The notes beneath the pieces were generated by a model. That model was not told the DNA's origin and searched no databases. It saw only the letters and a program-made list of their open reading frames with translations. Positions 13,743 through 26,364 of a DNA stretch of 64,000 nt are shown here, piece after piece. The DNA comes from an uncultured Granulicella sp. (GTDB lineage: Bacteria > Acidobacteriota > Terriglobia > Terriglobales > Acidobacteriaceae): assembly GCA_937873145.1 (NCBI GenBank), contig CALMVK010000007.1, forward strand, positions 853 through 64,852, read 5' to 3'. Position numbers and translations under genes: made by a program. Numbering within the stretch: position 1 is the first letter of the stretch; each line of letters begins with the position of its first letter.

Positions 13743-14918
13743 CTAGTAGACGTCGCGCTGGTAACGCTTGTCCTTTTTCATCCGGCTGAGGTACTCAGAT
13801 GCGTGGTCGAGCGTACCGTTCGAACCTTTGGCGATAGCGTCGAGCAGGGCCATCTCCACGTCTTTGGCCATGCGGGTTGCGTCGCCACAGACGTAGAAGA
13901 AGGCTCCACGTTCAAGCCATGCGTAGAGTTCGGCGGCGCGCTCCTGCATGCGGTCCTGGACATAGATCTTTTTGGCCTGGTCGCGAGAGAAGGCGGTGTC
14001 GAGATGGGTGAGCACACCGTCTTTATGCATCGCCTCAAGCTCATGCTGGTAGAGGAAGTCGAGCGAGCGGCGCTGTTCGCCGAAGAAGAGCCAATTTTCC
14101 CCGGGGGCGCCGGTAGCCTGGCGTTCTTCCAGAAAGGCGCGGAAAGGAGCAATGCCGGTGCCGGGACCGACCATGATGACCGGAGCGGAGGAGTCTGCGG
14201 GAAGGCGGAAGTTGCCGTTGGCATGCAGAAAGATAGGCATCGTCTCGCCCACGGGCGCGCGATCGCCAAGGTGTCCGCTGGCCAAGCCTTGCCGGGTGCG
14301 TCCATGAGCATCGTAGCGGACGACGCGGACCGTGGTCTGCACATTGTCGGCGTGGAGTGCCTGGCTGGAAGCGATGGAGTACATCCGTGGCGTTAGGCGG
14401 GCAAGCACCTGGAAGAGCTGTTGCGGGGAGGTAATCACACCTGGAAATTCATGAAGTAAGTCGATAAACTCGCGGCCGTAACAGTATTCTTCAGCGCGCG
14501 CCTTGTTTTCGGCACCCGCAAGCGCCTTCAGGCCTTCGTTTTCGGGAGCAAGCTTGTGCATCTGGGTGATGCGGCCGCGCTCCAGCTTGCCGATGGCAAG
14601 CCGGGTACGCAGAGCTTCGTCCAGGTCAATGTCGACCTTGTAGTGGTCGAGAACGCGTTCGTCTCCGCGCATGTGGAGCGCTTCGAGGACCTCATCGACG
14701 ACCTCGCGGCGGTTCTCAGGCAGGATGCCGACAGCGTCGCCGGGGGTATAGGTCATGCCATCTTCGAGCGTGAGTTCGATGTGGCGCGTCTCCTTCTCGG
14801 AGCCGGGAGCGGTCAGCAGATCATTGATGCGCACAGAGGACTGGTAGGGGTTGTTGCGAGTGTATGTGGATGTGTGCCCGCTTGCCAGGGTCTCGGTTGC
14901 TTCCAGCGTTTCGCTCAT
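13743..14918 (-). CDS. CysJ-like FAD/NADPH-binding reductase lacking the flavodoxin domain
   Basis: RMYSIAS, GLASGHL, GPGTGIAP, YVCGD, terminal DVY; 391 aa. Confidence 0.88.
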   Translation of the reverse strand: MSETLEATETLASGHTSTYTRNNPYQSSVRINDLLTAPGSEKETRHIELTLEDGMTYTPGDAVGILPENRREVVDEVLEALHMRGDERVLDHYKVDIDLDEALRTRLAIGKLERGRITQMHKLAPENEGLKALAGAENKARAEEYCYGREFIDLLHEFPGVITSPQQLFQVLARLTPRMYSIASSQALHADNVQTTVRVVRYDAHGRTRQGLASGHLGDRAPVGETMPIFLHANGNFRLPADSSAPVIMVGPGTGIAPFRAFLEERQATGAPGENWLFFGEQRRSLDFLYQHELEAMHKDGVLTHLDTAFSRDQAKKIYVQDRMQERAAELYAWLERGAFFYVCGDATRMAKDVEMALLDAIAKGSNGTLDHASEYLSRMKKDKRYQRDVY

Positions 14919-14927
14919 ACCGTTATG

Positions 14928-16352
14928 TTAGGCGATTTTGTGTCTGCCGGACAGCCAGCGCCGAAGCAGCCAGGCAAGCACGCCGAGCAGGACGACGAGG
15001 GCGGCCAGCCGGATCTCGTGGCCGAAGTTGGGCCGGCCAAGGAGGATATAGAGGAAGCCGCCCAAGGCAAGCAGAGGCGGAAGCGGATAGAGCCAGAGGC
15101 GGAATGGCCGGGGGAGATCGGGCTGGCTTCGCCGCAGGTAAAGGACACCGATGTGTTGAAGGAGAAATTGCACCAGAATGCGCAGAATGACGAGGGCGGC
15201 GATGACCTCGGCGAGCGAGAAGAAACAAAAGAGAGCGGCGACTCCGCCGAGATAAAGGAGCGAGAGATAAGGGAAGCCTCCGGTGGGATGCAGGCGGCCG
15301 AAAGGAGCGAAAAAGTTGCCGTCGCGGGCCGCGGCGTACGGAATGCGGGAGTAGCCGAGCAGCAAGGAGAAGATGCTGGCAAAGGCGGTGACCATGATGA
15401 GCATGGCAACCAGGCGTCCAGCAAAGAGGCCGAGGACGGGACCGAAGCGGGTACCGTAGGCAGTCTGCATGAAAAATGAGAGGAGGGCCTGGCGCGCGCC
15501 CAGGTCGTGGACCAAGAGCAGCGGACGCCACGGAACGACGCTGAGCACGGCGACATTGATAGCGAGATAGAGGATAGCGACCAGAAAGATCGAGAGAAGA
15601 ATGGCGCGTGGGATGGTGCGGGAGGGATCTCTGACCTCCGCGCCGAGGAAGGTGACGTTGTAGTAGCCCCAGAAGTCATAGGTGGCGATCAGCATCGCGG
15701 AGGCCAGGCCGGAGAAGAAGGCAGGCGTGAGATGGAAGGCGCCGGGAGGGAGGTCGAAGGCTTGCCTCGGGTGCCCGAACACGACGGCGGTTATCAGCAC
15801 CCAGGCGATGGTGCCGAGCACGGTGATCCACAAGAGATAGCTGATAACGCGCAAATGGACGAGATTGCGGTAGAGCAGCAGGATGGCAAGGAGGATAGCT
15901 GCAATGGCGATGGCGGTTCCGGGGCTGGCGACGAGGCGCCCCCAGGATGCGGTGTGCGTGCGAAGAACGGGAGCCAGATAGCCGGCGTACTGAGCAAGGC
16001 CGATCGATCCGCTGGCGACCGACAGGGGCGCGGAGAAGATGAGCTGAAAGACAAAGAGGAAAGCCAGAAAGCGGCCGAACGCGCCAGGGTAGATGGTGCG
16101 CAGGAAGCGGTAGGTGCCGCCGGCTTCGGGCATGGCCGCGCCGAGTTCCGCCCAGACCAGGCCGTCACACACGGCCAGCAGGGCACCAAGAATCCAGCCA
16201 AGCATGGCTTGCGGGCCGCCCATCGTAGAGAGGAGCAGAGGCAAGGTGATGAAGGGGCCAACGCCGATCATGTCGAGCATGTTGATGGCGATGGCGCCAG
16301 GGAGGGTGAGCGAGCGAGTGAGATGGCTTCCGGATTGGGGGCTGGAGGCGAT
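14928..16352 (-). CDS. APC family amino acid permease
   Basis: Multi-TM; MIGVGPF, ATYDFWGYYNV, GAEVRDP. First ATG 16280, but the frame is open to ATC at 16352 and adds LTRSLTLPGAIAIN. Confidence 0.88.
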   Translation of the reverse strand: MASSPQSGSHLTRSLTLPGAIAINMLDMIGVGPFITLPLLLSTMGGPQAMLGWILGALLAVCDGLVWAELGAAMPEAGGTYRFLRTIYPGAFGRFLAFLFVFQLIFSAPLSVASGSIGLAQYAGYLAPVLRTHTASWGRLVASPGTAIAIAAILLAILLLYRNLVHLRVISYLLWITVLGTIAWVLITAVVFGHPRQAFDLPPGAFHLTPAFFSGLASAMLIATYDFWGYYNVTFLGAEVRDPSRTIPRAILLSIFLVAILYLAINVAVLSVVPWRPLLLVHDLGARQALLSFFMQTAYGTRFGPVLGLFAGRLVAMLIMVTAFASIFSLLLGYSRIPYAAARDGNFFAPFGRLHPTGGFPYLSLLYLGGVAALFCFFSLAEVIAALVILRILVQFLLQHIGVLYLRRSQPDLPRPFRLWLYPLPPLLALGGFLYILLGRPNFGHEIRLAALVVLLGVLAWLLRRWLSGRHKIA

Positions 16353-16433
16353 CCCTCGAGTCTATCGTTCCATCCTTACTCCCAGGCTGCCGCGTCATAA
16401 CCAACGGCTTTAGACAATATTTGTGAAAGAGGC

Positions 16434-16460
16434 TAAAGTTTTGGCCAGGTTTGCCGATAT
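16434..16460 (+). promoter_or_regulatory. sigma28 (FliA) promoter upstream of PIG-L gene
   Basis: TAAA-GTTTTGGCCAGGTTT(15 nt)-GCCGATAT. Confidence 0.7.
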
Positions 16461-16475
16461 GAGAGAGTAAGCCTT

Positions 16476-19307
16476 ATGAACGCTCGCTCCTTTTCTTTGG
16501 CCATGATCCTGCTTCTTCTCGCGGCGTGTGTACCCGTTGCGTGTGGGGCACAATCTGCGCCTGGTCCCCGGCTGGTCGACGATCCGGCAAACCTGACGGG
16601 AGAGCGGGTCTCGCCTCCCTCCCCTGCGGACCGGCTGCCGATCAACCACGGAGCGCCCGCGCTCCAGCAGTTGCTTTTAAAGCTGCGGACGCGCGCCTCG
16701 CTGATGATGATTGTGGCGCATCCGGATGACGAGGACGGCGGATTTCTGACGTATGAGTCGCGCGGCATGGGAGCGCGGGTGGCCATGCTGACGCTGAACC
16801 GTGGCGAAGGCGGACAAAGCCTGATGTCCGGGGATTTCAACGATGCGCTCGGGCTGATCCGGACACAGGAGCTGCTCGAGGAAGACCGCTACACGGGCGT
16901 CGACCAGATGTTTGGGACCGAGGTGGACTTCGGTTTTTCAAAGACCAAGGAAGAGAGCTATGCCAAGTGGACGCATGAGCGTGTGCTTTACGACGCGGTG
17001 CGCGCGGTGCGGCTCTATCGGCCGCTAGTGCTGGCGAGCGTCTTTGTGGGAGGACCGACGGACGGGCATGGACACCACCAGGTCTCAGGCGAGATTACGC
17101 AGGAGGTGTTTACCGCGGCGGGAGACCCGAAGGTTTTTCCTGAGATGATTCGCGAAGGTCTGCTGCCATGGACTCCGCTGAAGGTGTACGCGCGGGTTCC
17201 ATTCTCGCGCATGACGAAAGACGGAATGTTCGATTATGCGACAGGAAAGACGATTCCGACGCGCTTTGAGAATTATGTGACGGGAAAAGTAACGAACGCC
17301 GAACCGAGCGCCACGGTAAAGATTCCGGAAGGCGATCCGGCAACGATAGCGTTTGCGGGAAGACAGGCGGCTCCCTCCTTGGGAATGGACGGACTGACCT
17401 ATGTACAGTTTGCAAGGAACGGATTGGCACTGCAAAAGACGCAAGTCGGGCCTGGTGTACGGCTGGCTCCGCCGGGGAAGTCGGAGACGGGCTATACATT
17501 GATGGGATCGCGGGTGGGAACGCCGCCGACTGAGGCCAGCATCTTCACGGGCATCAATATCGGTCTCGTGGGGATTGCCGACCTGGACCCAAACGCGCCC
17601 GGGCTGCGGGAAGTTCTTACGGCCGTCGATATGCGGATCGGCGAGGCGCAGCAACTGTTTACGGCGGATCATCCCGAGGCAACTGCGCCTCCGCTGCGTC
17701 GCGCGCTGGCTGCCATCGATGGGCTGCTCACGGCCTACGCAACGAGCACTGGTCTCGAGGAGCAACAGCGCTTTAACCTGGTGCATGAACTGCGAGTTAA
17801 GAGAGTGCAGTTGAACGATGCTTTGGTTCTGGCGGATGGCTTGCGCATGACGGCGACACTCGATGCTTCGAGTAAGCCGCTGCTCAGTACGCTTCAGAAG
17901 GCCACGATCAATGTCCGATTGGAAAATCGAGGCGGACTGACCCCGCTGCTGCTGGCGGAGAACAGTGCAGTACCGTCGCTGCCGGACGCGAATGCAAAGC
18001 CACTGGCAGGCGGTGTGACGATGCTTTCCCGAACGCTTGCTTTCCCGAAGGGTCTGCCGGTGACACGGCCGTACTTCTCCCGCCCCAATTCGGAGCAGGC
18101 CTTCTACGATGTTTCGCAGGCCGACCTGCGCCTTGCGCCTTCTACGCCGCCGGCACTGGTGATAACGCAACTGTTGGACGACGATGGAGCGCGGCTTGAG
18201 TTGAGGGCGGAGGTAACCGCGACGGATGAATCTTTGGAGGCAGCCCAGGTGGTGCCGCCATTCTCGGTGGCACTTTCGCCGGCTTTGGGCCTTCTCCATG
18301 CAGACGCACATCCATTTTCTGTGGAGTCGTTCATTCGGGAGCAGGGTGCAAATGCAACGTGGAAGGCAGGCTTATCGGTTCCAGAGGGCTGGCAATTCAA
18401 GCTGGATCCGGCTGCTTTGCCACTTGAGGCTGGTTTGAATGGGTCGGGCGATGCTTTGGGCAGACCAGAGGCATGGCAGGTTCAGCCGCACGGCATCGAG
18501 CCAGGATCTGCGTATCTGGTGCATGGCGACGTTTTCTCGCAAGGACATGCCTATAACGAGTCTTATCGGGCCGTTGGGTACCCGGGGCTTGCTTCGACCA
18601 ACTTCTATACACCTGCGGTTTTCAAAGCAGAGGCCATCGATGTGCATACGGCTCCGGGTCTGCGCATCGCGTATTTGCCTGGTACGGGAGATCCCTTGCC
18701 CGAGTTTCTGCCGGATCTTGGTGTGACTCCAACGTTGATTACGCCCCAGGATATAAAGAGCGGCGCGTTGGCAAAGTACGACGCAGTAATTGTGGGGGTG
18801 CGCGCCTATGAGGCACAGTCTGCGCTTCTCGGCCTTGGGTCGAAGCCGCTGATTGAGTATGCGCGTGCAGGCGGCGTGGTGATCCTGGAGTACATGATCG
18901 CCAAATTCGGGAATACGGAGGCTCCTTATGCGGTTGCGGTACCAGGGGATTCGGCGCACAACGTGGTGGAGGAAGCGCAGCCCGTGCGTGTGCTCGCGCC
19001 CGAGAGTCCGCTGCTGAACTGGCCGAACAGGATCAACTCAGCGGACTTCGATGGCTGGGTAGAGGAGCGCGGACATGGATTCGCCGCAACCTGGGCTCCG
19101 CAGTTCCAGGCGCTGCTCGAGACCGAGGACGTGGGACAGGATCCGCAGCGTGGCGGATTGCTGCTGGCTCCAGTGGGCAAAGGAGCCTACGTGTACTGCG
19201 CACTGGCACTCTATCGGCAGTTGCCTGAGGGAGTTCCAGGAGCTTACCGGCTGCTGGCGAACCTGATCAGCTATGCCAAGAATCCAGGACGGACCGCCAT
19301 GAAATGA
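16476..19307 (+). CDS. secreted PIG-L family deacetylase with C-terminal class I GATase-like domain
   Basis: Signal peptide; AHPDDED and HGHH motifs; 943 aa; C-terminal GWVEERG..GKGAYVY..LYRQLP. Confidence 0.88.
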   Translation: MNARSFSLAMILLLLAACVPVACGAQSAPGPRLVDDPANLTGERVSPPSPADRLPINHGAPALQQLLLKLRTRASLMMIVAHPDDEDGGFLTYESRGMGARVAMLTLNRGEGGQSLMSGDFNDALGLIRTQELLEEDRYTGVDQMFGTEVDFGFSKTKEESYAKWTHERVLYDAVRAVRLYRPLVLASVFVGGPTDGHGHHQVSGEITQEVFTAAGDPKVFPEMIREGLLPWTPLKVYARVPFSRMTKDGMFDYATGKTIPTRFENYVTGKVTNAEPSATVKIPEGDPATIAFAGRQAAPSLGMDGLTYVQFARNGLALQKTQVGPGVRLAPPGKSETGYTLMGSRVGTPPTEASIFTGINIGLVGIADLDPNAPGLREVLTAVDMRIGEAQQLFTADHPEATAPPLRRALAAIDGLLTAYATSTGLEEQQRFNLVHELRVKRVQLNDALVLADGLRMTATLDASSKPLLSTLQKATINVRLENRGGLTPLLLAENSAVPSLPDANAKPLAGGVTMLSRTLAFPKGLPVTRPYFSRPNSEQAFYDVSQADLRLAPSTPPALVITQLLDDDGARLELRAEVTATDESLEAAQVVPPFSVALSPALGLLHADAHPFSVESFIREQGANATWKAGLSVPEGWQFKLDPAALPLEAGLNGSGDALGRPEAWQVQPHGIEPGSAYLVHGDVFSQGHAYNESYRAVGYPGLASTNFYTPAVFKAEAIDVHTAPGLRIAYLPGTGDPLPEFLPDLGVTPTLITPQDIKSGALAKYDAVIVGVRAYEAQSALLGLGSKPLIEYARAGGVVILEYMIAKFGNTEAPYAVAVPGDSAHNVVEEAQPVRVLAPESPLLNWPNRINSADFDGWVEERGHGFAATWAPQFQALLETEDVGQDPQRGGLLLAPVGKGAYVYCALALYRQLPEGVPGAYRLLANLISYAKNPGRTAMK

Positions 19308-19351
19308 GACCGGCGCGGGACGATCGCAAGCGAGGCTGCATCCCATGCGAT

Positions 19352-19585
19352 ATGCAGAACATCCAGGCTAAGCCGTTCTCTGTCACTCACACGCGATCCG
19401 ACCTCCGTCGTCCTTCCCTGCTGCGCTGCGCTGGACTCGGGCTGTTCATGCTAAGCCTGTGCAGTCTGTGCTCCGGGTGCATTGTCGCCGGGGTATCGAG
19501 CAGCGGCGGCGCGTTCCTGTGGCCGGGCGGATTTGGTTTGCTCATCCTTGTGGCCATAGTGTTGTGGATGATGCGTCGTAGGTAA
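19352..19585 (+). CDS. small membrane protein
   Basis: 77 aa; SGCIVAG..GGAFLWPGGFGLLILVAIVLWMMRRR TM with basic tail. Confidence 0.55.
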   Translation: MQNIQAKPFSVTHTRSDLRRPSLLRCAGLGLFMLSLCSLCSGCIVAGVSSSGGAFLWPGGFGLLILVAIVLWMMRRR

Positions 19586-19609
19586 AGTTCGTGAGAGAGA
19601 AAGGAAACG

Positions 19610-20371
19610 ATGACCGGATTGCGCGAGTCGCAGTTGCTGGACGCGGTTGACCTGCTGCTGGATGCACGGCGAACGATGACTCCGATCGACGATCTTCCGT
19701 CGGAGCTTCGGCCTGCCTCAATGGATGAGGTCGTCTTTGTGCAGGACCGGATGCAGGAGGCGTACGGCGCGGTCGGGGGTTGGAAGGTAGGTGCTTCTTC
19801 GCGTGACGCTACACCGGCGGCAGCACCGCTTCCTTTGACGATGATCGCGCACAGCGGCGCGGCACGGGGAGGCCGTCTTCGCGGTCTCGAGGCAGAGATT
19901 GCCTTTGTGCTGAAGACCGATCTGCCTGCGCGCGCACAGCCTTACAGCGATGAAGACATTTATGCCGCAATAGGAACGTGCCATCCGGCGATTGAGATTC
20001 TAGAATCCGCACTTGTTGAACCCACGCGCCCGGAGGCAAAGACGACCATGCTGGCGGACTTACAGATGCATGGCGGGCTCGTCCTCGGACCAGGTTGCCC
20101 GTTCTGGCGCGAGGTGGATTTTCAGCGGGAGCATGTGACGTTGGCAATAGACGGGATGATCAGGATAGAAGAGACGGGCTCGCATCCTACGGGCGATTTA
20201 CTGCACCTGCTACGATGGCTGGCGAACGAAGGGGCAGCACGAACGGGAGGACTTCACGCCGGACAGTGGATCACGACGGGAAGCTGGACCGGCATTCTTG
20301 AGGCCCGTACGGGTTCGTCCGTCGATGTGCACTTTTCGACCATTGGAAGGGTCGGTTTCCGTTTCAGTTGA
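19610..20371 (+). CDS. fumarylacetoacetate hydrolase family / 2-keto-4-pentenoate hydratase-like
   Basis: GGWKVG, LEAEIAF, AIEILES, ITTGSWTG; good RBS. Confidence 0.85.
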   Translation: MTGLRESQLLDAVDLLLDARRTMTPIDDLPSELRPASMDEVVFVQDRMQEAYGAVGGWKVGASSRDATPAAAPLPLTMIAHSGAARGGRLRGLEAEIAFVLKTDLPARAQPYSDEDIYAAIGTCHPAIEILESALVEPTRPEAKTTMLADLQMHGGLVLGPGCPFWREVDFQREHVTLAIDGMIRIEETGSHPTGDLLHLLRWLANEGAARTGGLHAGQWITTGSWTGILEARTGSSVDVHFSTIGRVGFRFS

Positions 20372-20389
20372 ACGCGACGGGCGCTAGGC

Positions 20390-21877
20390 TTACTCATTGG
20401 TTTTGCTTGCCGTTCGAAAAGCCTGTTGAAATTCTTGTGCGTCGAAGGGAGCGCGATGCAGATTGGGCTCTTGCTCCCTGGGCTCAAAAGCGATCTCGGT
20501 TTGTTGCACTGCATCGGCGATGACCACCGTTTTTGCATTCAAAAATTCGCGCATTCCGGCGGCAGAGAGTTCGCGGCCGTATCCTGAGCGCTTGATGCCG
20601 CCGAAGGGCAGGCGCGGGTCGCTGGCCACCATGGCGTTGACAAAGACCTGGCCGCACGCAAGTTCAGCGATCAGCTGTTTTTGTTCGTCCACCTCGCGGG
20701 TCCAGACAGAGGCGCCCAAACCAAAGGGCGTGTCGTTGGCGACCTCGATGGCTTCCTCAAGCGAACGTACGCGAAACAGCAGGGCCACGGGACCGAGGAT
20801 CTCTTCGCGATAAACCCCGACGGTGCGTGGAACATCGACCAGCACGGTAGGAGGAAAAAAGCTGCCTGAGCCTTCGCGACGCTCGCCTCCGGTCAGCAGA
20901 CGGGCCCCGGCACGGGTGGCAGAAAGCACCTGCTGCTGCACCTCGGCGACGATCTGCGGGGTAGCGAGCGGACCGATCTCGGTAGTCTCCTCCATTGGAT
21001 TGCCTACTAGAAGCGCTTTCATTGAGGCGACGAAGCGCGACTCGAAGTCAGCAAAGATGTCTTCATGAACGATGAAGCGCTTCGCCGCGATGCTCGACTG
21101 ACCATTGTTGACGATGTGGGCTTTGACCGCCGTGGAGAGCGCAAGATCCAGGTCTGCCGAGGGCAGGACGATGAAGGGATCGGAGCCGCCCAGCTCGAGG
21201 ACGGAGCGCTTGAGCAGCCAGCCGGCTTGCGCGGCGATGGCGCGGCCGGCGGCTTCGGAGCCCGTAACGGTCACAGCGGCGATGCGCTCGTCCGAGAGCA
21301 CAGCTTCTACCTGCCGGGCTTCGATCATCAGGGTCTGGAAGGTGCCTCGCGGGAACCCGGCACGGCGGACCAGAGCCTCAATTGCCAGACCGCACTGCGG
21401 AACGTTCGACGCGTGCTTCAACAGAGCGACGTTGCCAGCCATCAGGGCAGGCGATAGAAAACGGAAGACCTGCCAAAAGGGGAAGTTCCAAGGCATGACG
21501 GCCAGCACGATCCCGAGCGGATCCCAGCGGACGTAGCTGTTGTTCTGCTCGGTCGGTATCGGTTCTTCGGTCAAGATGCGGGCGGCGTTCTCGGCAAAAT
21601 AGCGGCAGCCCAGCGCGCACTTGAGGATCTCCTGGCGGGCGCTGACGAGCGTTTTGCCCATCTCGGCGGTAATCATGGCAGCCAGTTCGTCGACTTCGTG
21701 CTCGAGAATCCCGGCCAGTTTGCGCATGCAGAGAGCGCGATGTTCAAGCGGAATCTCACCATAACTGCGGAAGGCGATATGCGCCGTGGCGATTTTGGCT
21801 TTCACAGCCTCGTCGCTCAAGGGCTCGAACTGGCGAAGCACCTCGCCTGTCGCTGGATTGATAGAGGTAATCGACAT
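20390..21877 (-). CDS. succinate-semialdehyde dehydrogenase-like ALDH with catalytic Cys replaced by Ser
   Basis: PWNFPFWQ, LKHA, TGSEAAG, LELGGSDP, EEILGP, PFGGIKRSGYGREL; NNGQSSIAAKR where the family has NNGQSCIAAKR. Confidence 0.88.
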   Translation of the reverse strand: MSITSINPATGEVLRQFEPLSDEAVKAKIATAHIAFRSYGEIPLEHRALCMRKLAGILEHEVDELAAMITAEMGKTLVSARQEILKCALGCRYFAENAARILTEEPIPTEQNNSYVRWDPLGIVLAVMPWNFPFWQVFRFLSPALMAGNVALLKHASNVPQCGLAIEALVRRAGFPRGTFQTLMIEARQVEAVLSDERIAAVTVTGSEAAGRAIAAQAGWLLKRSVLELGGSDPFIVLPSADLDLALSTAVKAHIVNNGQSSIAAKRFIVHEDIFADFESRFVASMKALLVGNPMEETTEIGPLATPQIVAEVQQQVLSATRAGARLLTGGERREGSGSFFPPTVLVDVPRTVGVYREEILGPVALLFRVRSLEEAIEVANDTPFGLGASVWTREVDEQKQLIAELACGQVFVNAMVASDPRLPFGGIKRSGYGRELSAAGMREFLNAKTVVIADAVQQTEIAFEPREQEPNLHRAPFDAQEFQQAFRTASKTNE

Positions 21878-21900
21878 AGGGAACAGGGTCCGCAGCCAGT

Positions 21901-24525
21901 TTAGCAAGGAGTGTCCGGCGGCAGTGTGGGGTCCGCGGCGGTATCCAGCAGAAGGCGCAGTTCAGCGTGGAGTGCCGACGCGATCTGCTCCGGAGTGTCC
22001 GCAGGCGAGCAGCGAATCGGGCTGCCGATGCGGATGCCGAGACGCCCGGCGTGGAACCAGTCCTGGGCAACGGCCTTCTGTGCCGAAAAGCCCTGAAGAG
22101 CGATCGGCAGCACCTCCGTCTTCGAAGCCTGGGCGAGCAGGCCGATGCCGGCACGAAAGGGCTGCAGCGCACCTGTCGGAGAGCGGCGGCCCTCAGGAAA
22201 GATCAGCACGTGAAAGTCGCGGTCGAGCGCCTCACCGGCGTGGGCGAAGCTGCGGCGGAACCCGGCCTGGCGTGGAAGCGGAAAGGCGTTCAGCAGAGCC
22301 GTCACCAGGCAATACTGGATGGGAGCAAGCATGTTCGCCCACCAACTGCCCTGGTTGCGACCGTGCCGCCAGTCTTCGAGCATCTCTCCGGCGGTGGCTA
22401 CGGCGAGGCGCCGGCGCACATGCGGCGGAAGCGCGTACAGTACCAGCCCTACGTCGAACCACGTGACGTGGTTGGCAATCAGCAGCATGGGTTGGGTGGA
22501 AAGAGACGTCGCGGGCAGTTCCACCCGGGGCTTGGCGAGGAGCCAGACCAGCGGCCGGACGATGGCTTCGACAAACGCGACGCGGAGAGCTTGTATAGGA
22601 CGCGACCATGGCCAGCGTGGATAGCGGAAAGCGGGCGGCTCGGCGGGGAGTGGCTGAACTCGTGACGACTCCAGGCTTGTGGCCTGCGCAGAGCTGTCAG
22701 ACATTCGGGGAGCCAGCAAAGTACGCAGCTGCCCGAGCGTTTCAATCTTCAGCAAGGTTGCGTCGTCGATCGACGTCCCGAAACGCGTCTCCAGGGCGCT
22801 TTGCAACTGTACGCGTCCGAGGCTATCAAGGTGAAGATCTTCGGTAAGGCGAGCGTCCTCGCCGGTTTGCGTGGCCGGGACGCCGGTCAGCGAAGCAAGC
22901 AGCGTTGTGAGCGAGTCGCTTTCCTCTGTTTGGCTGACGGCCCGGTCCTGCTGCGCAACCCACGCGGCCACCGTGCGGCGCTGGATTTTGCCGGTCGAGG
23001 TGCGGGGCAGATCACCGTCTCGCCACAGGAACCAGTGGCGGATTTGCTGGTAGCCGGCCAGGTCTGTGTTGGCGGCATGCACCGCCGCGGCGGCTGCTGT
23101 GGGTCCGGCGGGTGCGACGAGCACGGCGGCCGGTTCCTGGCTTGTGCCCGCAATCGAAAGCGCCACGACAGCGCAGGCAATCACCTGCGGCTGCCGGAGC
23201 AACGCGGCCTCGACATCCTCGGGATGGATGTTGACCCCTGAAGCGGTGACAATGACCTCGCTGCGGCGGCCGGTGAAGCGAAGATTTCCGGCGTCATCCT
23301 GGGTGGCGAGGTCGCCGGTGGCGAGCCAGGGATCTTCACGCTGGAGCAGTTGGCCATTCTGCCACGTGGCGGTCGAGACCATCTCCCCGCGAACCGAGAT
23401 TTCACCCTCGGCACCAAGGCGCATCTCGCGCCCAGGCAGCGGCTTGCCGATGGAGCCGCGGCTGATGCGGAAGGGATGGTTCAAAGTCACGAGGGCGGCG
23501 GTCTCGGTAAGGCCATAGCCCTGGATGACGGCGAAACCCATGCGGTTCCAGAACTCTTCAAGGTCGCTCGGCAAAGATGCGCCGCCACAGACAAAGGCCC
23601 AAAACTTCCAGCCCAGACGCCGATGCACCCGACGAAAACGCCAGATGCGTCGCCAGACGCTCTCGCCGGGTACGGCTTGCAGATGCCGCGGATCGACAGC
23701 CAGGTAGGACCGCAGCAGATCCAGCAGGCGAGGGACCGCGGCCAGCACTGTAATGCGTTCGCGGCGCAGGGTCCGGACGATTCGTTCGGCTTCCAGACGG
23801 CTCTCAAAGTGGACCTCCGCGGCCAGCAACGGCGGCAGCCACAGACCCATGAACTGGCCGAAGACGTGGCTGAGGGGCAGCGTATGCAGGAACCGCAGGG
23901 GATGGAACCAGCGCTCATAGCGGCGATACCGGCGGATCTCGGCCTCGATCGGCTCGACGCTGGCAAGCACATTGCCGTGGGTGTGCACGATGCCTTTGGG
24001 CTCGGAGGTGGTGCCGGAGGTGAAGAGAATTTGGAGCGGGCTTTGCCGCTGCAGGCCGGGGATCGGCACAGAAGGCGGTGCGGCAGGCAAGCGGCTGAGT
24101 TCGGCGAAGGGCAAAATTGGAATCGGCGTGAGTAGGCTCAGCAAGAGTGGCGCATCCCCCAGGATGAGCTGCGGGGTGGTCTCGGCGAGGACCCGCTCCG
24201 CAAAGACGGCCGTGCCCGCAGCATCGAGCGGAACGACCAAAATGCCGCGCAGGACGCACGCGAAAAACGAGGCGACCCACTCCGCCGAGTTCTCACCCCA
24301 GAGCAGGACGCGCTCACCGGGAGCGATGCCGCGCCGCTCAAGCTCGGCAGCCACGCGGTCGGTCAGGCCGGCGAGAGCGGCGTAGGTGGTTCGTGCGCTG
24401 CGGTTGCCGGTGTAGCGTACAAAAGCAATCTGTGCCTCGGCGTTGCGCCAGTCGGCGACCAGCGTGGCCAGGTGCGGCCGCTTTCCTCGTACGTCGGGAA
24501 ACGAGCCTCGATCGGGAGCTGCCAT
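21901..24525 (-). CDS. acyl-CoA/ACP synthetase + ACP + acyltransferase fusion (Aas-like)
   Basis: FTSGTTSEPKG, QGYGLTET, LDSLG carrier serine, NHVTWFD and FPEGRRS PlsC motifs. Confidence 0.88.
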   Translation of the reverse strand: MAAPDRGSFPDVRGKRPHLATLVADWRNAEAQIAFVRYTGNRSARTTYAALAGLTDRVAAELERRGIAPGERVLLWGENSAEWVASFFACVLRGILVVPLDAAGTAVFAERVLAETTPQLILGDAPLLLSLLTPIPILPFAELSRLPAAPPSVPIPGLQRQSPLQILFTSGTTSEPKGIVHTHGNVLASVEPIEAEIRRYRRYERWFHPLRFLHTLPLSHVFGQFMGLWLPPLLAAEVHFESRLEAERIVRTLRRERITVLAAVPRLLDLLRSYLAVDPRHLQAVPGESVWRRIWRFRRVHRRLGWKFWAFVCGGASLPSDLEEFWNRMGFAVIQGYGLTETAALVTLNHPFRISRGSIGKPLPGREMRLGAEGEISVRGEMVSTATWQNGQLLQREDPWLATGDLATQDDAGNLRFTGRRSEVIVTASGVNIHPEDVEAALLRQPQVIACAVVALSIAGTSQEPAAVLVAPAGPTAAAAAVHAANTDLAGYQQIRHWFLWRDGDLPRTSTGKIQRRTVAAWVAQQDRAVSQTEESDSLTTLLASLTGVPATQTGEDARLTEDLHLDSLGRVQLQSALETRFGTSIDDATLLKIETLGQLRTLLAPRMSDSSAQATSLESSRVQPLPAEPPAFRYPRWPWSRPIQALRVAFVEAIVRPLVWLLAKPRVELPATSLSTQPMLLIANHVTWFDVGLVLYALPPHVRRRLAVATAGEMLEDWRHGRNQGSWWANMLAPIQYCLVTALLNAFPLPRQAGFRRSFAHAGEALDRDFHVLIFPEGRRSPTGALQPFRAGIGLLAQASKTEVLPIALQGFSAQKAVAQDWFHAGRLGIRIGSPIRCSPADTPEQIASALHAELRLLLDTAADPTLPPDTPC

Positions 24526-24589
24526 CGTAGGTTAGAGGCATATGCCATAATCGGGTTTGTTCCAGCCGAAAACGTAGCTGTCGAGAAGG

Positions 24590-25087
24590 ATGACCAAGGG
24601 AGAGTGTGTGCCGACCCAGGACGACGAGCGCTTTATGCGGATGGCGATCGCGCTGGCGACCGAGAACGTCATCTCCGGTCGCGGAGGTCCGTTCGGCGCG
24701 GTGGTGGTACGGGATGGCACGGTGCTCTCTACGGGAGTGAACCAGGTGACGACGACCAACGATCCAACGGCGCACGCGGAGGTCTCGGCGATCCGCAATG
24801 CATGCCGGGAGCTCGGAACGTTTGAACTTACCGGCGCAACGCTCTACTCAAGCTGCGAGCCTTGCCCGATGTGCCTGGCGGCCATCCTGTGGGCGCGCTG
24901 CAGTAGGCTCTTCTTCGGCAACACCGCTCAGGATGCGGCGCAGGCGGGCTTCGACGACTCATACTTTTACGAACAGGTGCGCCAGCCTGCGGATCGGCGC
25001 GATCTCCCCACCACCAATCTGCTGCGTGGGGAAGCCGCGGCCAACTTCTCCGCGTGGCAAACTTTTGCAGGAAGGATTCCTTACTGA
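24590..25087 (+). CDS. guaD: nucleoside/guanine deaminase (cytidine deaminase fold)
   Basis: GGPFGAV, DPTAHAE, CEPCPMC. Confidence 0.8.
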   Translation: MTKGECVPTQDDERFMRMAIALATENVISGRGGPFGAVVVRDGTVLSTGVNQVTTTNDPTAHAEVSAIRNACRELGTFELTGATLYSSCEPCPMCLAAILWARCSRLFFGNTAQDAAQAGFDDSYFYEQVRQPADRRDLPTTNLLRGEAAANFSAWQTFAGRIPY

Positions 25088-26364
25088 TGAAACTGACCAA
25101 AATGGCATTGCTGGGATTTGGAACGGTGGGGCAATCCGTGGTGAAGGGCCTGCGCGGAGATAGCTTTCCCAGTCTCCAGCTGACGCATATCCTCAACCGC
25201 AACATCGCGCGCAAACGCGAGACGGAGGCGGCCGGATATGCCGGGCCGGAAGTGGTCTGGACCGAAGATATTGCCGACGTGCTCGACTCCGACGTAGACG
25301 TGGTGGTGGAGTTGATCGGCGGGTCGGACCCGGCGGCGACGTGGATCGAGCACGCACTACGGTCAGGCAAATCGGTGGTCACGGCGAACAAGCAGCTGAT
25401 CGCCTACCGAGGGCCGGAGCTGGCGCGTCTGGCCGCGGCGCACGGTGTGCAACTGCTGCATGGAGCGGCGGTGGCGGGCGGGGTGCCGGTGATCCCGGGC
25501 ATGCAGCAGGGGCTGGGTGGCGACCAGGTGGTGCGCGTCAGCGGAATCCTGAATGGCACATGTAACTACATCCTGAGCCGCATGGAGACGGGGGATCGCT
25601 ATGCGGATGTGCTCAAGGACGCGCAGGCACTCGGGTATGCCGAAGCTGACCCGACCGCGGATGTGGGTGGCTTCGATGCACGGGCCAAGCTGTGCATCCT
25701 GGCGCGGGTGGCCATGCAGGCGGAGCTCGACCCGGAACAGGTGGCTACACAAAGCATCGCGGAGGTAGATGCGGTGGACTTTGCCTACGCGCGGGAGCTG
25801 GGGTCGACGATCCGGCAGGTCTCGAAGGCGCAGTTGCTGGAGCAGGGCATGTATGCGCGAGTGGCGCCGATGCTGGTGCCGCTGAACTCGCCGCTGGCCT
25901 GGTCGCATGGCACGCAGAATATGGTCGTTTCGACCGGACGCATGGGAGGGGACGTGGTGTTTTCGGGCCACGGAGCGGGAGGCGATGCGACGGCGGTGGC
26001 GGTGCTCTCGGACCTGCTGGCCGTGGCGCAGGGCTCGCGGGCGGTGCATCTGGCGGCGGAGCCAAAGTCGGTGACGGGCGACTCGGTGGCGCCGCATTAT
26101 CTGCGCTTCATTGTGAACGACAAGCCGGGAATCGTTTCGGCAATCTCGGGCGCGCTGGCGGCGGCGGGCGCAAACATTGATTCTCTGCTGCAGCGCAAAG
26201 GTTACCCGAAGCAGCGTCTGGCCTTCGTGGTAACGACGGAGCCTTGCCTGAACTCGGTGATCGCGCGGGCGGTCGACTCGACGGCCACGCTGGACTGCAT
26301 GATCGCGAGGCCGCTGGCACTCGAGATGCTCGTGGTGGATGACAAGGACGAGCCAACGGCTTAG
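25087..26364 (+). CDS. hom: homoserine dehydrogenase with C-terminal ACT domain
   Basis: GFGTVG, VVTANK, GILNGTCNYIL, GYAEADP, GHGAGG; ATG overlaps upstream TGA. Confidence 0.93.
   Translation: MKLTKMALLGFGTVGQSVVKGLRGDSFPSLQLTHILNRNIARKRETEAAGYAGPEVVWTEDIADVLDSDVDVVVELIGGSDPAATWIEHALRSGKSVVTANKQLIAYRGPELARLAAAHGVQLLHGAAVAGGVPVIPGMQQGLGGDQVVRVSGILNGTCNYILSRMETGDRYADVLKDAQALGYAEADPTADVGGFDARAKLCILARVAMQAELDPEQVATQSIAEVDAVDFAYARELGSTIRQVSKAQLLEQGMYARVAPMLVPLNSPLAWSHGTQNMVVSTGRMGGDVVFSGHGAGGDATAVAVLSDLLAVAQGSRAVHLAAEPKSVTGDSVAPHYLRFIVNDKPGIVSAISGALAAAGANIDSLLQRKGYPKQRLAFVVTTEPCLNSVIARAVDSTATLDCMIARPLALEMLVVDDKDEPTA

What the first reader, a model, noticed from the sequence alone, without database searches (positions are those of the whole stretch)
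20390..21877. Aldehyde dehydrogenase with catalytic Cys replaced by Ser plus an extra tail
Seen: NNGQSSIAAKR (AGC at 21092-21094) where SSADH/ALDH enzymes have the nucleophile Cys (GQSCIA). The NAD-binding and general-base Glu motifs are intact, and about 40 extra C-terminal residues follow. Known: Cys-to-Ser largely abolishes ALDH dehydrogenase activity. Inference: a pseudoenzyme acting as NAD(P)/aldehyde sensor or scaffold, apparently co-transcribed with an Aas-like acyl-activating fusion. It is one base from TGC.
Basis: partly seen in the sequence, partly recalled or inferred. Interest (0 to 1): 0.55.

Follow-up and report, generated by a model that had tools for sequence, protein, structure and literature searches.

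The report
SSADH that lost its catalytic cysteine
One soil acidobacterial species carries an otherwise well-kept succinate-semialdehyde dehydrogenase gene whose reactive cysteine and two other family-invariant active-site residues have been replaced, so the enzyme is probably nearly dead: a young, single-species case of a known kind of event, not shown to have a new function.

Summary
The gene at window 20390-21877 on the minus strand (495 aa) is a cyanobacterial/GabD1-type NADP-dependent succinate-semialdehyde dehydrogenase. Its codon 262 (AGC, 21092-21094) aligns without gaps to the nucleophile Cys262 of the solved Synechococcus enzyme.

About 290 homologues from several phyla all have Cys at this position. 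A second strain, whose protein differs at 2 residues, also has Ser, so a one-off assembly error is very unlikely.

Two more positions that are invariant in the family are changed only here: R254H and F361L. F361 corresponds to ALDH2 Phe401, which contacts the nicotinamide. The cofactor motifs are therefore not fully intact.

The 40-residue tail and the position behind an Aas-like gene are not special. Cys-bearing orthologues in sister species share both.

Overall dN/dS is low (0.065). It is only mildly higher on this branch (about 0.085 against 0.05).

Best reading: a recent, species-fixed loss or near-loss of catalysis (engineered ALDH2 C302S keeps about 0.3% activity). The gene is either early decay or a newborn pseudoenzyme. 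I found no evidence for a sensor or scaffold role. The scan has already reported several Cys-less ALDHs on other DNA. Interest is modest.

The parts
20390..21877 (-). SSADH-type aldehyde dehydrogenase CDS (495 aa plus stop); start ATG at 21877
   Evidence: Pfam PF00171 E 1e-131. PDB 4it9/3vz3 E 1e-155, gapless over residues 1-452. Best NCBIfam hit is NF006915 at 647.7 bits, below its 730-bit cut-off.
21092..21094 (-). Codon 262, AGC = Ser, at the position of the catalytic nucleophile Cys
   Evidence: The closest orthologue G005 has TGC. Cys is found in 119/119, 16/16 and 155/155 homologues.
21116..21118 (-). Codon 254, CAC = His, where the whole family has Arg (CGC in G005)
   Evidence: It is the sole exception among 274 sequences.
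20795..20797 (-). Codon 361, CTC = Leu, in EEILGPV, where the family has Phe (EEIFGPV; ALDH2 Phe401, a nicotinamide contact)
   Evidence: The role of Phe401 is taken from PMC12041015.
21194..21196 (-). Codon 228, the general-base Glu of LELGG, intact
   Evidence: Its role is described in PMC7510979.
20393..20521 (-). C-terminal tail, residues 453-495, beyond the ALDH fold; shared with Cys-bearing orthologues
   Evidence: The model puts a helix at 480-493, but at low confidence.
21878..21900 (-). 23-nt spacer between the stop of the Aas-like gene and the SSADH ATG
   Evidence: It is 91% conserved in G005 even though the upstream gene was deleted there.
21901..24525 (-). Upstream co-directional gene: acyl-AMP ligase, carrier (PP-binding) and PlsC-type acyltransferase fusion, 874 aa
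   Evidence: Pfam PF00501, PF13193, PF00550 and PF01553. The same gene order is seen in G079, G080, G060 and G074.

Best explanation
This is the species' single orthologue of the cyanobacterial/GabD1-type NADP-dependent succinate-semialdehyde dehydrogenase. It has recently lost its thiol nucleophile through a one-base change, TGC to AGC (Cys262Ser). Two further family-invariant active-site residues have also changed: Arg254His, and Phe361Leu at the nicotinamide contact.

Shown:
- The substitutions are real and shared by two non-identical strains.
- They are unique among about 290 homologues.
- The rest of the protein is intact, including substrate carboxylate binding, the NADP determinants, the general base and the oxyanion Asn.
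- The protein has evolved under strong overall constraint.

Inferred:
- The protein still folds and can bind NADP+ and succinate semialdehyde.
- It cannot form the thiohemiacetal and thioester intermediates, nor the Cys-NADP adduct typical of this subfamily. Turnover should therefore fall to roughly 1% of the ancestral enzyme or less.
- Selection on catalysis has been relaxed in this lineage. The gene is a young loss-of-function or strong hypomorph allele that has not yet picked up stops or frameshifts.
- It is probably still transcribed as the second gene behind the Aas-like gene.
For: - Gapless alignment puts Ser262 on the catalytic Cys262 of 4it9.
- C262A in the Cyanothece orthologue is inactive and loses the Cys-NADP adduct (PMC7510979).
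- ALDH2 C302S keeps 0.3% dehydrogenase and 0.36% esterase activity (PMC2740413).
- Cys is present in 119/119 closest database homologues, 16/16 genus orthologues and 155/155 more distant ones.
- The protein of a second assembly (P0002) differs from the window's at 2 residues, and its neighbour differs at 8 residues. It still has His254, Ser262, Ser339 and Leu361.
- Among 274 family members the window protein is the sole exception at 3 otherwise invariant columns. 256 sequences have none and 15 have one.
- Omega on this branch is 0.08-0.09 against 0.05 for the sister branch; pairwise omega is 0.065.
- No close SSADH paralogue exists in the genome. The best is 33% identical and of the betaine/aminobutyraldehyde type.
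- There is local precedent for gene erosion. The adjacent Aas-like gene is deleted, stopped or frameshifted in three sister species.
Against: - The ORF has no stop or frameshift in either strain.
- Total amino-acid change on this branch is not clearly above the sister branch: 20 against 21 by Tajima counts, 23 against 16 by parsimony.
- The two strains differ at only 2 conservative residues in this protein, about the average of nine neighbouring genes. This could mean the Ser form is still under purifying selection.
- The gene is nearly universal in the genus.
- No loss of candidate SSA-producing enzymes was detected in this genome, so it is unclear why the activity would be dispensable.
- All three invariant-site hits lie in or next to the catalytic centre. 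This looks more like a targeted change than random decay, although the numbers are small.
Confidence: 0.5

Rival explanations
1. Newborn pseudoenzyme. After losing catalysis the protein is kept by selection for a non-catalytic role such as binding or buffering NADP(H) or succinate semialdehyde, or partnering another protein.
For: - The ORF is intact in two strains, with only two conservative differences between them.
- Overall omega is 0.065.
- All ligand-binding residues are kept.
- Changes at invariant sites are confined to the catalytic centre.
- Precedents exist: the second AldDH of GRM1 microcompartment loci has Cys replaced by Ser or Pro (PMC4207490), and vertebrate ALDH16A1 is a pseudoenzyme (PMC12041015).
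Against: - Ser is confined to one species. There is no deep conservation of the loss and no active paralogue for it to assist.
- The operon partner and the tail also occur with Cys-bearing orthologues.
- The between-strain test is ambiguous. Genes to the left differ at 1/1637 residues and genes to the right at 10/1039, so 2/495 fits either constraint or relaxation.
Confidence: 0.25
2. A working serine-nucleophile dehydrogenase. Ser262, activated by Glu228, forms a hemiacetal and an oxyester. R254H, T255I, Y275F and F361L retune the site to give useful activity that is insensitive to thiol oxidation.
For: - Glu228, Asn131 and all substrate and cofactor residues are retained.
- Four of 23 lineage-specific changes fall within residues 254-275 around the catalytic loop.
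- The gene is core in the genus and has no backup SSADH.
- C302S ALDH2 has measurable, if tiny, activity.
Against: - Engineered Cys-to-Ser ALDHs lose more than 99% of activity.
- None of about 290 natural homologues uses Ser.
- F361L weakens a nearly universal nicotinamide contact and does not obviously help.
- By helix geometry, residue 254 probably faces away from the substrate tunnel. This is my inference and was not tested; the model was too poor to measure.
Confidence: 0.12
3. Artefact. The Ser codon is a sequencing or assembly error, or a minority variant fixed by consensus calling in a metagenome-assembled genome.
For: The genome has 344 contigs and is 91% complete, so it looks like a MAG. 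The change is a single base.
Against: - A second, non-identical assembly carries the same Ser together with His254 and Leu361.
- Three independent single-base changes at invariant sites in one gene are not expected from random error.
- Neighbouring genes show no such excess.
Confidence: 0.04

Closest known systems
Synechococcus sp. PCC 7002 SSADH (PDB 4it9, 3vz3) and Cyanothece cce4228; NCBIfam NF006915 NADP-dependent succinic semialdehyde dehydrogenase
   Same: The alignment is gapless over residues 1-452 with E 1e-155, and the numbering is the same. Asn131, Trp135, Arg139, Lys154, Ser157, Glu228, Glu359 and Ser419 are all conserved.
   Different: Cys262 is Ser, Arg254 is His and the Phe of EE(I/L)F(G/A)PV is Leu. 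A 43-residue C-terminal tail, typical of the Acidobacteriaceae orthologues, is added. The NF006915 score of 647.7 is below the 730-bit equivalog cut-off.
Engineered nucleophile mutants: ALDH2 C302S and cce4228 C262A
   Same: The replacement is at the same position. C302S is the same residue change.
   Different: Those are laboratory mutants, with 0.3% and no activity respectively. This one is a natural allele fixed in at least two strains and comes with two further active-site changes.
Second, Cys-less AldDH of GRM1 microcompartment loci (CutB) and vertebrate ALDH16A1
   Same: These are natural ALDH-fold proteins whose nucleophile Cys is replaced (Ser or Pro in GRM1) while the fold is kept.
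   Different: Those are old, lineage-wide paralogues that sit beside an active ALDH or carry extra domains. This is the only SSADH orthologue of its genome, the loss is limited to one species, and selection for the dead form has not been shown.

Membership tests
ALDH superfamily (Pfam PF00171) | Full-length match to the Aldedh profile above the gathering score | tested here: met
   440 bits against a cut-off of 23; residues 3-451 match profile positions 9-461.
ALDH superfamily (catalytically competent members) | Nucleophile Cys (ALDH2 Cys302) | tested here: not met
   Ser262 (AGC) aligns to Cys262 of 4it9.
ALDH superfamily (catalytically competent members) | General-base Glu (LELGG) and oxyanion Asn | tested here: met
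   Glu228 and Asn131 are present.
ALDH superfamily (catalytically competent members) | Nicotinamide contacts Glu399 and Phe401 (EEIFGP motif) | tested here: not met
   Glu359 is present but Phe361 is Leu. Phe is found in 128/128 homologues where the motif was scored, and in 273/273 in the wide alignment. The role is taken from PMC12041015.
Cyanobacterial/GabD1-type NADP-SSADH (NF006915) | Score above the equivalog cut-off | tested here: not met
   647.7 bits against 730. It is still the best-scoring family.
Cyanobacterial/GabD1-type NADP-SSADH (NF006915) | SSA carboxylate binders (Trp135, Arg139, Ser419) and NADP determinants (Lys154, Ser157) | tested here: met
   All are present at the same numbering. 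Their roles come from PMC7510979.
Cyanobacterial/GabD1-type NADP-SSADH (NF006915) | Orthology with Cys-bearing SSADHs by sequence and synteny | tested here: met
   87-90% identical to the genes at the same locus in G005, G079, G080, G060 and G074.
Cyanobacterial/GabD1-type NADP-SSADH (NF006915) | SSA-oxidising activity | not testable with these tools
   Needs an enzyme assay.
ALDH pseudoenzymes (CutB/GRM1 second AldDH, ALDH16A1) | Loss of the catalytic Cys with the fold retained | tested here: met
ALDH pseudoenzymes (CutB/GRM1 second AldDH, ALDH16A1) | The loss is conserved across a lineage, showing maintenance of the dead form | tested here: not met
   Only two strains of one species have Ser. 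All other homologues examined have Cys.
ALDH pseudoenzymes (CutB/GRM1 second AldDH, ALDH16A1) | Purifying selection after the loss | tested here: inconclusive
   There are 2/495 differences between strains, against 1/1637 in the left neighbours and 10/1039 in the right neighbours. DNA of the second strain could not be fetched.

The most novel reading that the evidence does not exclude
A pseudoenzyme, or a serine-nucleophile ALDH, caught at birth. A core metabolic SSADH has just swapped Cys for Ser and remodelled two invariant active-site residues, yet stays under selection. This would give a natural before-and-after pair (G000 against G005, G060 and others, about 89% identical) for studying how a dead or retooled enzyme originates.
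Probability: 0.3. Interest if true: 0.6.

Novelty: new member of a known kind. Interest (0 to 1): 0.3.

Why it matters
If the Ser form is only a fresh loss of function, the main value is a warning for annotation. This gene would be called a succinate-semialdehyde dehydrogenase by every homology pipeline, although the species probably lacks that activity. That matters for metabolic models of soil Acidobacteriaceae.

If the Ser form is maintained by selection, it is a rare, very young example of pseudoenzyme birth or of a thiol-free ALDH mechanism. Close active orthologues are available for direct comparison.

Tried and rejected
No dN/dS between the two Ser alleles and no sample provenance could be obtained.
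- The metagenome and genome-collection scans returned only homologues of 75% identity or less. No further Ser-bearing contigs turned up.
I used distance decomposition instead.
- The AlphaFold model from 33 sequences was poor: pLDDT 69, and low around residues 206-230 and 256-262. I did not use it to place residues 254, 339 and 361.
- I tested whether the Aas-like gene was inserted only in this genome and displaced the SSADH promoter. This is rejected. G005 carries a deletion scar with both ends of that gene, and four other species have the same gene order.
- I tested whether this genome has lost the source of SSA. No glutamate decarboxylase was found in any of 5 genomes. The GABA-aminotransferase-like and ThDP-enzyme complements are similar to those of relatives. 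The test is not informative.
- I considered A-to-I editing by the adjacent tadA-like deaminase restoring Cys. This is rejected on the code: AGC would be read as GGC (Gly), not Cys.
- A control for a general excess of odd substitutions found none in the neighbouring genes: HSD 2, deaminase 1.

Full report
**What is there**

The finding lies on the minus strand. The ORF 20390-21907 begins with a TTG. The ATG at 21877 gives a 495-aa protein whose first residues (MSITSINPATGE...) align with residue 1 of orthologues and of solved structures. The protein is a full-length aldehyde dehydrogenase (Pfam PF00171, E 1e-131).

Its best solved relative is the NADP-dependent succinate-semialdehyde dehydrogenase (SSADH) of Synechococcus sp. 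PCC 7002 (4it9, E 7e-155). The two align from residue 1 to 452 without a gap, so the numbering is the same. The wild-type structure reads NNGQSCIAAKR and the window protein reads NNGQSSIAAKR. Ser262 is AGC at 21092-21094. The closest orthologue has TGC there, so this is a one-base change.

**How unusual it is**

- All 119 closest proteins in the 5.8-billion-protein collection have Cys.
- So do all 16 orthologues found in 30 related genomes. This count includes G009, which is flagged as unpublished; without it the count is 15/15.
- So do 155 of 155 more distant homologues (53-75% identity) from Acidobacteriota, Cyanobacteria, Gemmatimonadota, Verrucomicrobiota and others.
- In a joint alignment of 274 family members there are 47 invariant columns and 39 columns with a single exception. 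The window protein is that exception three times: R254H (CGC to CAC), C262S and F361L (TTC to CTC). 256 sequences are never the exception, 15 are once, and one is twice at adjacent columns. One further sequence, from a truncated contig, was disregarded.
- F361 is the Phe of the EEIFGPV motif. It corresponds to ALDH2 Phe401, one of the almost universally conserved contacts of the nicotinamide (PMC12041015).

The active site therefore carries three hits, not one, and the cofactor motifs are not fully intact. Everything else known to matter in this subfamily is present: Asn131, Trp135, Arg139, Lys154, Ser157, Glu228, Glu359 and Ser419 (roles from PMC7510979).

**Is it real?**

The genome has 344 contigs and is 91% complete, so it looks like a metagenome-assembled genome. 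Error had to be considered.

The protein collection holds two versions of this protein:
- The window's own (P0122, on a contig of 86,349 nt).
- P0002, on two other contigs, the longest 48,843 nt.

They differ at two residues, V237I and Q468E. Both have His254, Ser262, Ser339 and Leu361. The neighbouring Aas-like proteins of the two assemblies differ at 8 of 874 residues. So a second, non-identical strain carries the same active-site changes, and the changes predate the split of the strains. Reads were not available.

**The tail and the neighbour**

The roughly 43 residues beyond the ALDH fold are not peculiar to this protein. Lengths of 495-496 aa are the rule among the closest orthologues. 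The motif ...EP.L....FD..QF..AFRTA... is shared with Cys-bearing proteins of G005, G008, G012 and many metagenomic relatives.

The upstream gene (21901-24525, minus strand) is an acyl-AMP ligase, carrier and PlsC-type acyltransferase fusion. It ends 23 nt before the SSADH start.

At first this gene looked like an insertion specific to this genome. G005, G008 and most of the genus have SSADH directly divergent from the tadA-like deaminase. That reading is wrong:
- G005's 351-nt spacer keeps both ends of the Aas-like gene. Positions 1-58 match window 21878-21933 at 91%, and positions 212-345 match window 24438-24572 at 77%. This is a scar of a deletion of about 2.5 kb.
- Four other species (G079, G080, G060, G074) have the same deaminase / Aas-like / SSADH order, with SSADH 87-90% identical and carrying Arg254, Cys262 and Phe361.

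Co-transcription is therefore plausible, but it is an ancestral feature of the subclade and is not tied to the Ser form.

**Selection**

- Against G005 the gene has dN 0.058 and dS 0.89, giving omega 0.065.
- Tajima-type counts show no clear acceleration: 20 against 21 unique changes with G008 as outgroup. Parsimony counts with closer relatives give 23 against 16.
- Splitting pairwise distances over three taxa gives omega 0.08-0.09 for the window's branch and about 0.05 for G005's, with four different outgroups. This rise is modest and of marginal weight. It would fit a short terminal phase of relaxed constraint.
- Four of the 23 lineage-specific changes lie in residues 254-275 around the catalytic loop.

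The two strains differ at 2/495 residues in SSADH. Nine other proteins looked up in both strains differ at 0 to 8 residues each. Pooled, 2/495 is about average. However, the genes to the left (PIG-L family, FAH family, APC permease) differ at 1/1637 residues and those to the right (Aas-like, deaminase) at 10/1039. The test therefore cannot say whether the Ser-bearing protein is constrained or relaxed. Synonymous divergence between the strains is needed.

**Consequences for function**

- In the Cyanothece orthologue, C262A abolishes activity and the characteristic Cys-NADP adduct (PMC7510979).
- In human ALDH2, C302S leaves 0.3% dehydrogenase and 0.36% esterase activity (PMC2740413, Table 1).

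With F361L on top, the window protein should be a very poor dehydrogenase that can still bind its ligands.

The genome has no other close SSADH. Its five other ALDH genes are at most 33% identical. They look like betaine/aminobutyraldehyde-type, P5C dehydrogenase, lactaldehyde-type and others.

I found no sign that this genome has lost a source of SSA:
- Glutamate decarboxylase was not found in any of five genomes.
- GABA-aminotransferase-like genes are similar to those of G005 and G008.
- ThDP enzymes are not fewer than in relatives.

**Reading**

The best-supported account is a young, species-fixed loss or near-loss of catalysis in an otherwise conserved core enzyme (confidence about 0.5). 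It has not been settled whether the gene is drifting towards a pseudogene or is kept for a residual or non-catalytic role.

For decay:
- Ser is limited to one species.
- Omega is mildly raised on this branch.
- Gene erosion occurs in this neighbourhood and genome. The Aas-like gene is deleted in G005, has an in-frame TAG in G060 and is frameshifted in G074.

For retention:
- The ORF is intact in two strains.
- Overall omega is low.
- All three invariant-site hits sit at the catalytic centre while the other invariant positions are untouched.

A retuned serine-nucleophile enzyme is possible but has no precedent among natural homologues. An artefact is unlikely.

**Comparison with what is known**

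Natural Cys-less ALDHs are known. The second AldDH of GRM1 microcompartment loci has Ser or Pro at this position (PMC4207490), and vertebrate ALDH16A1 is a pseudoenzyme. This scan has already reported several conserved Cys-less ALDHs on other DNA, in Asgard archaea, an alphaproteobacterium, CutB and trypanosomes.

This case differs in three ways. It is the genome's only SSADH orthologue, it is confined to one species, and it is very young. It is a new member of a known kind, and its main practical consequence is a likely misannotation.

**Genomes flagged as unpublished**

G009 contributes one of the 16 genus orthologues with Cys. G023, G028, G029 and G030 appear only in the tally of Aas-like homologues. 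No conclusion depends on them.

Noticed in passing
L183:10675-11025 (G005); L212:1501-4200 (G060); L213:1100-3760 (G074): The Aas-like ligase-carrier-acyltransferase gene upstream of SSADH is eroding in sister species. G005 has a deletion scar of about 2.5 kb that keeps both gene ends. G060 has an in-frame TAG splitting the gene into 394 and 494 codons. G074 has a frameshift near the 5' end. The gene is intact in the window, G079 and G080.
   Followed up: partly
window 21901-24525 (-): The architecture AMP-binding + PP-binding + PlsC acyltransferase (874 aa) is widespread in Acidobacteriaceae and is mostly labelled 'long-chain acyl-CoA synthetase'. The genus holds two classes: about 80% identical copies at this locus, and about 55% identical copies elsewhere in the genome. 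The function is uncharacterised. The protein could acylate a lysolipid directly from a self-loaded carrier domain.
   Followed up: partly
window 20393-20521 (-): The SSADH orthologues of this clade carry a conserved C-terminal extension of about 43 residues (...QTEI.FEP....EP.L....FD..QF..AFRTA...). The model predicts a terminal helix at 480-493 with low confidence. Tail length varies from 0 to about 110 residues within the genus. The role is unknown.
   Followed up: partly
window 13743-25087: Amino-acid divergence between the two strains of this species is very uneven. The PIG-L, FAH-family and APC genes differ at 1/1637 residues. The Aas-like and deaminase genes differ at 10/1039, and glnD at 8/765. 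This suggests a recombination or sweep boundary near the SSADH/Aas-like junction.
   Followed up: no
window 21877-21907: Gene callers disagree on the SSADH start. The window's record uses the TTG at 21907 (505 aa, overlapping the stop of the Aas-like gene). The sister strain's record uses the ATG at 21877 (495 aa). Homology supports the ATG.
   Followed up: yes
window 24590-25087 (+) and 25054-26364 (+): The tadA-like deaminase ORF and the longest homoserine dehydrogenase ORF (GTG start) overlap by 34 nt. This gene pair is conserved next to SSADH across the genus. The true start of the homoserine dehydrogenase gene was not checked.
   Followed up: no
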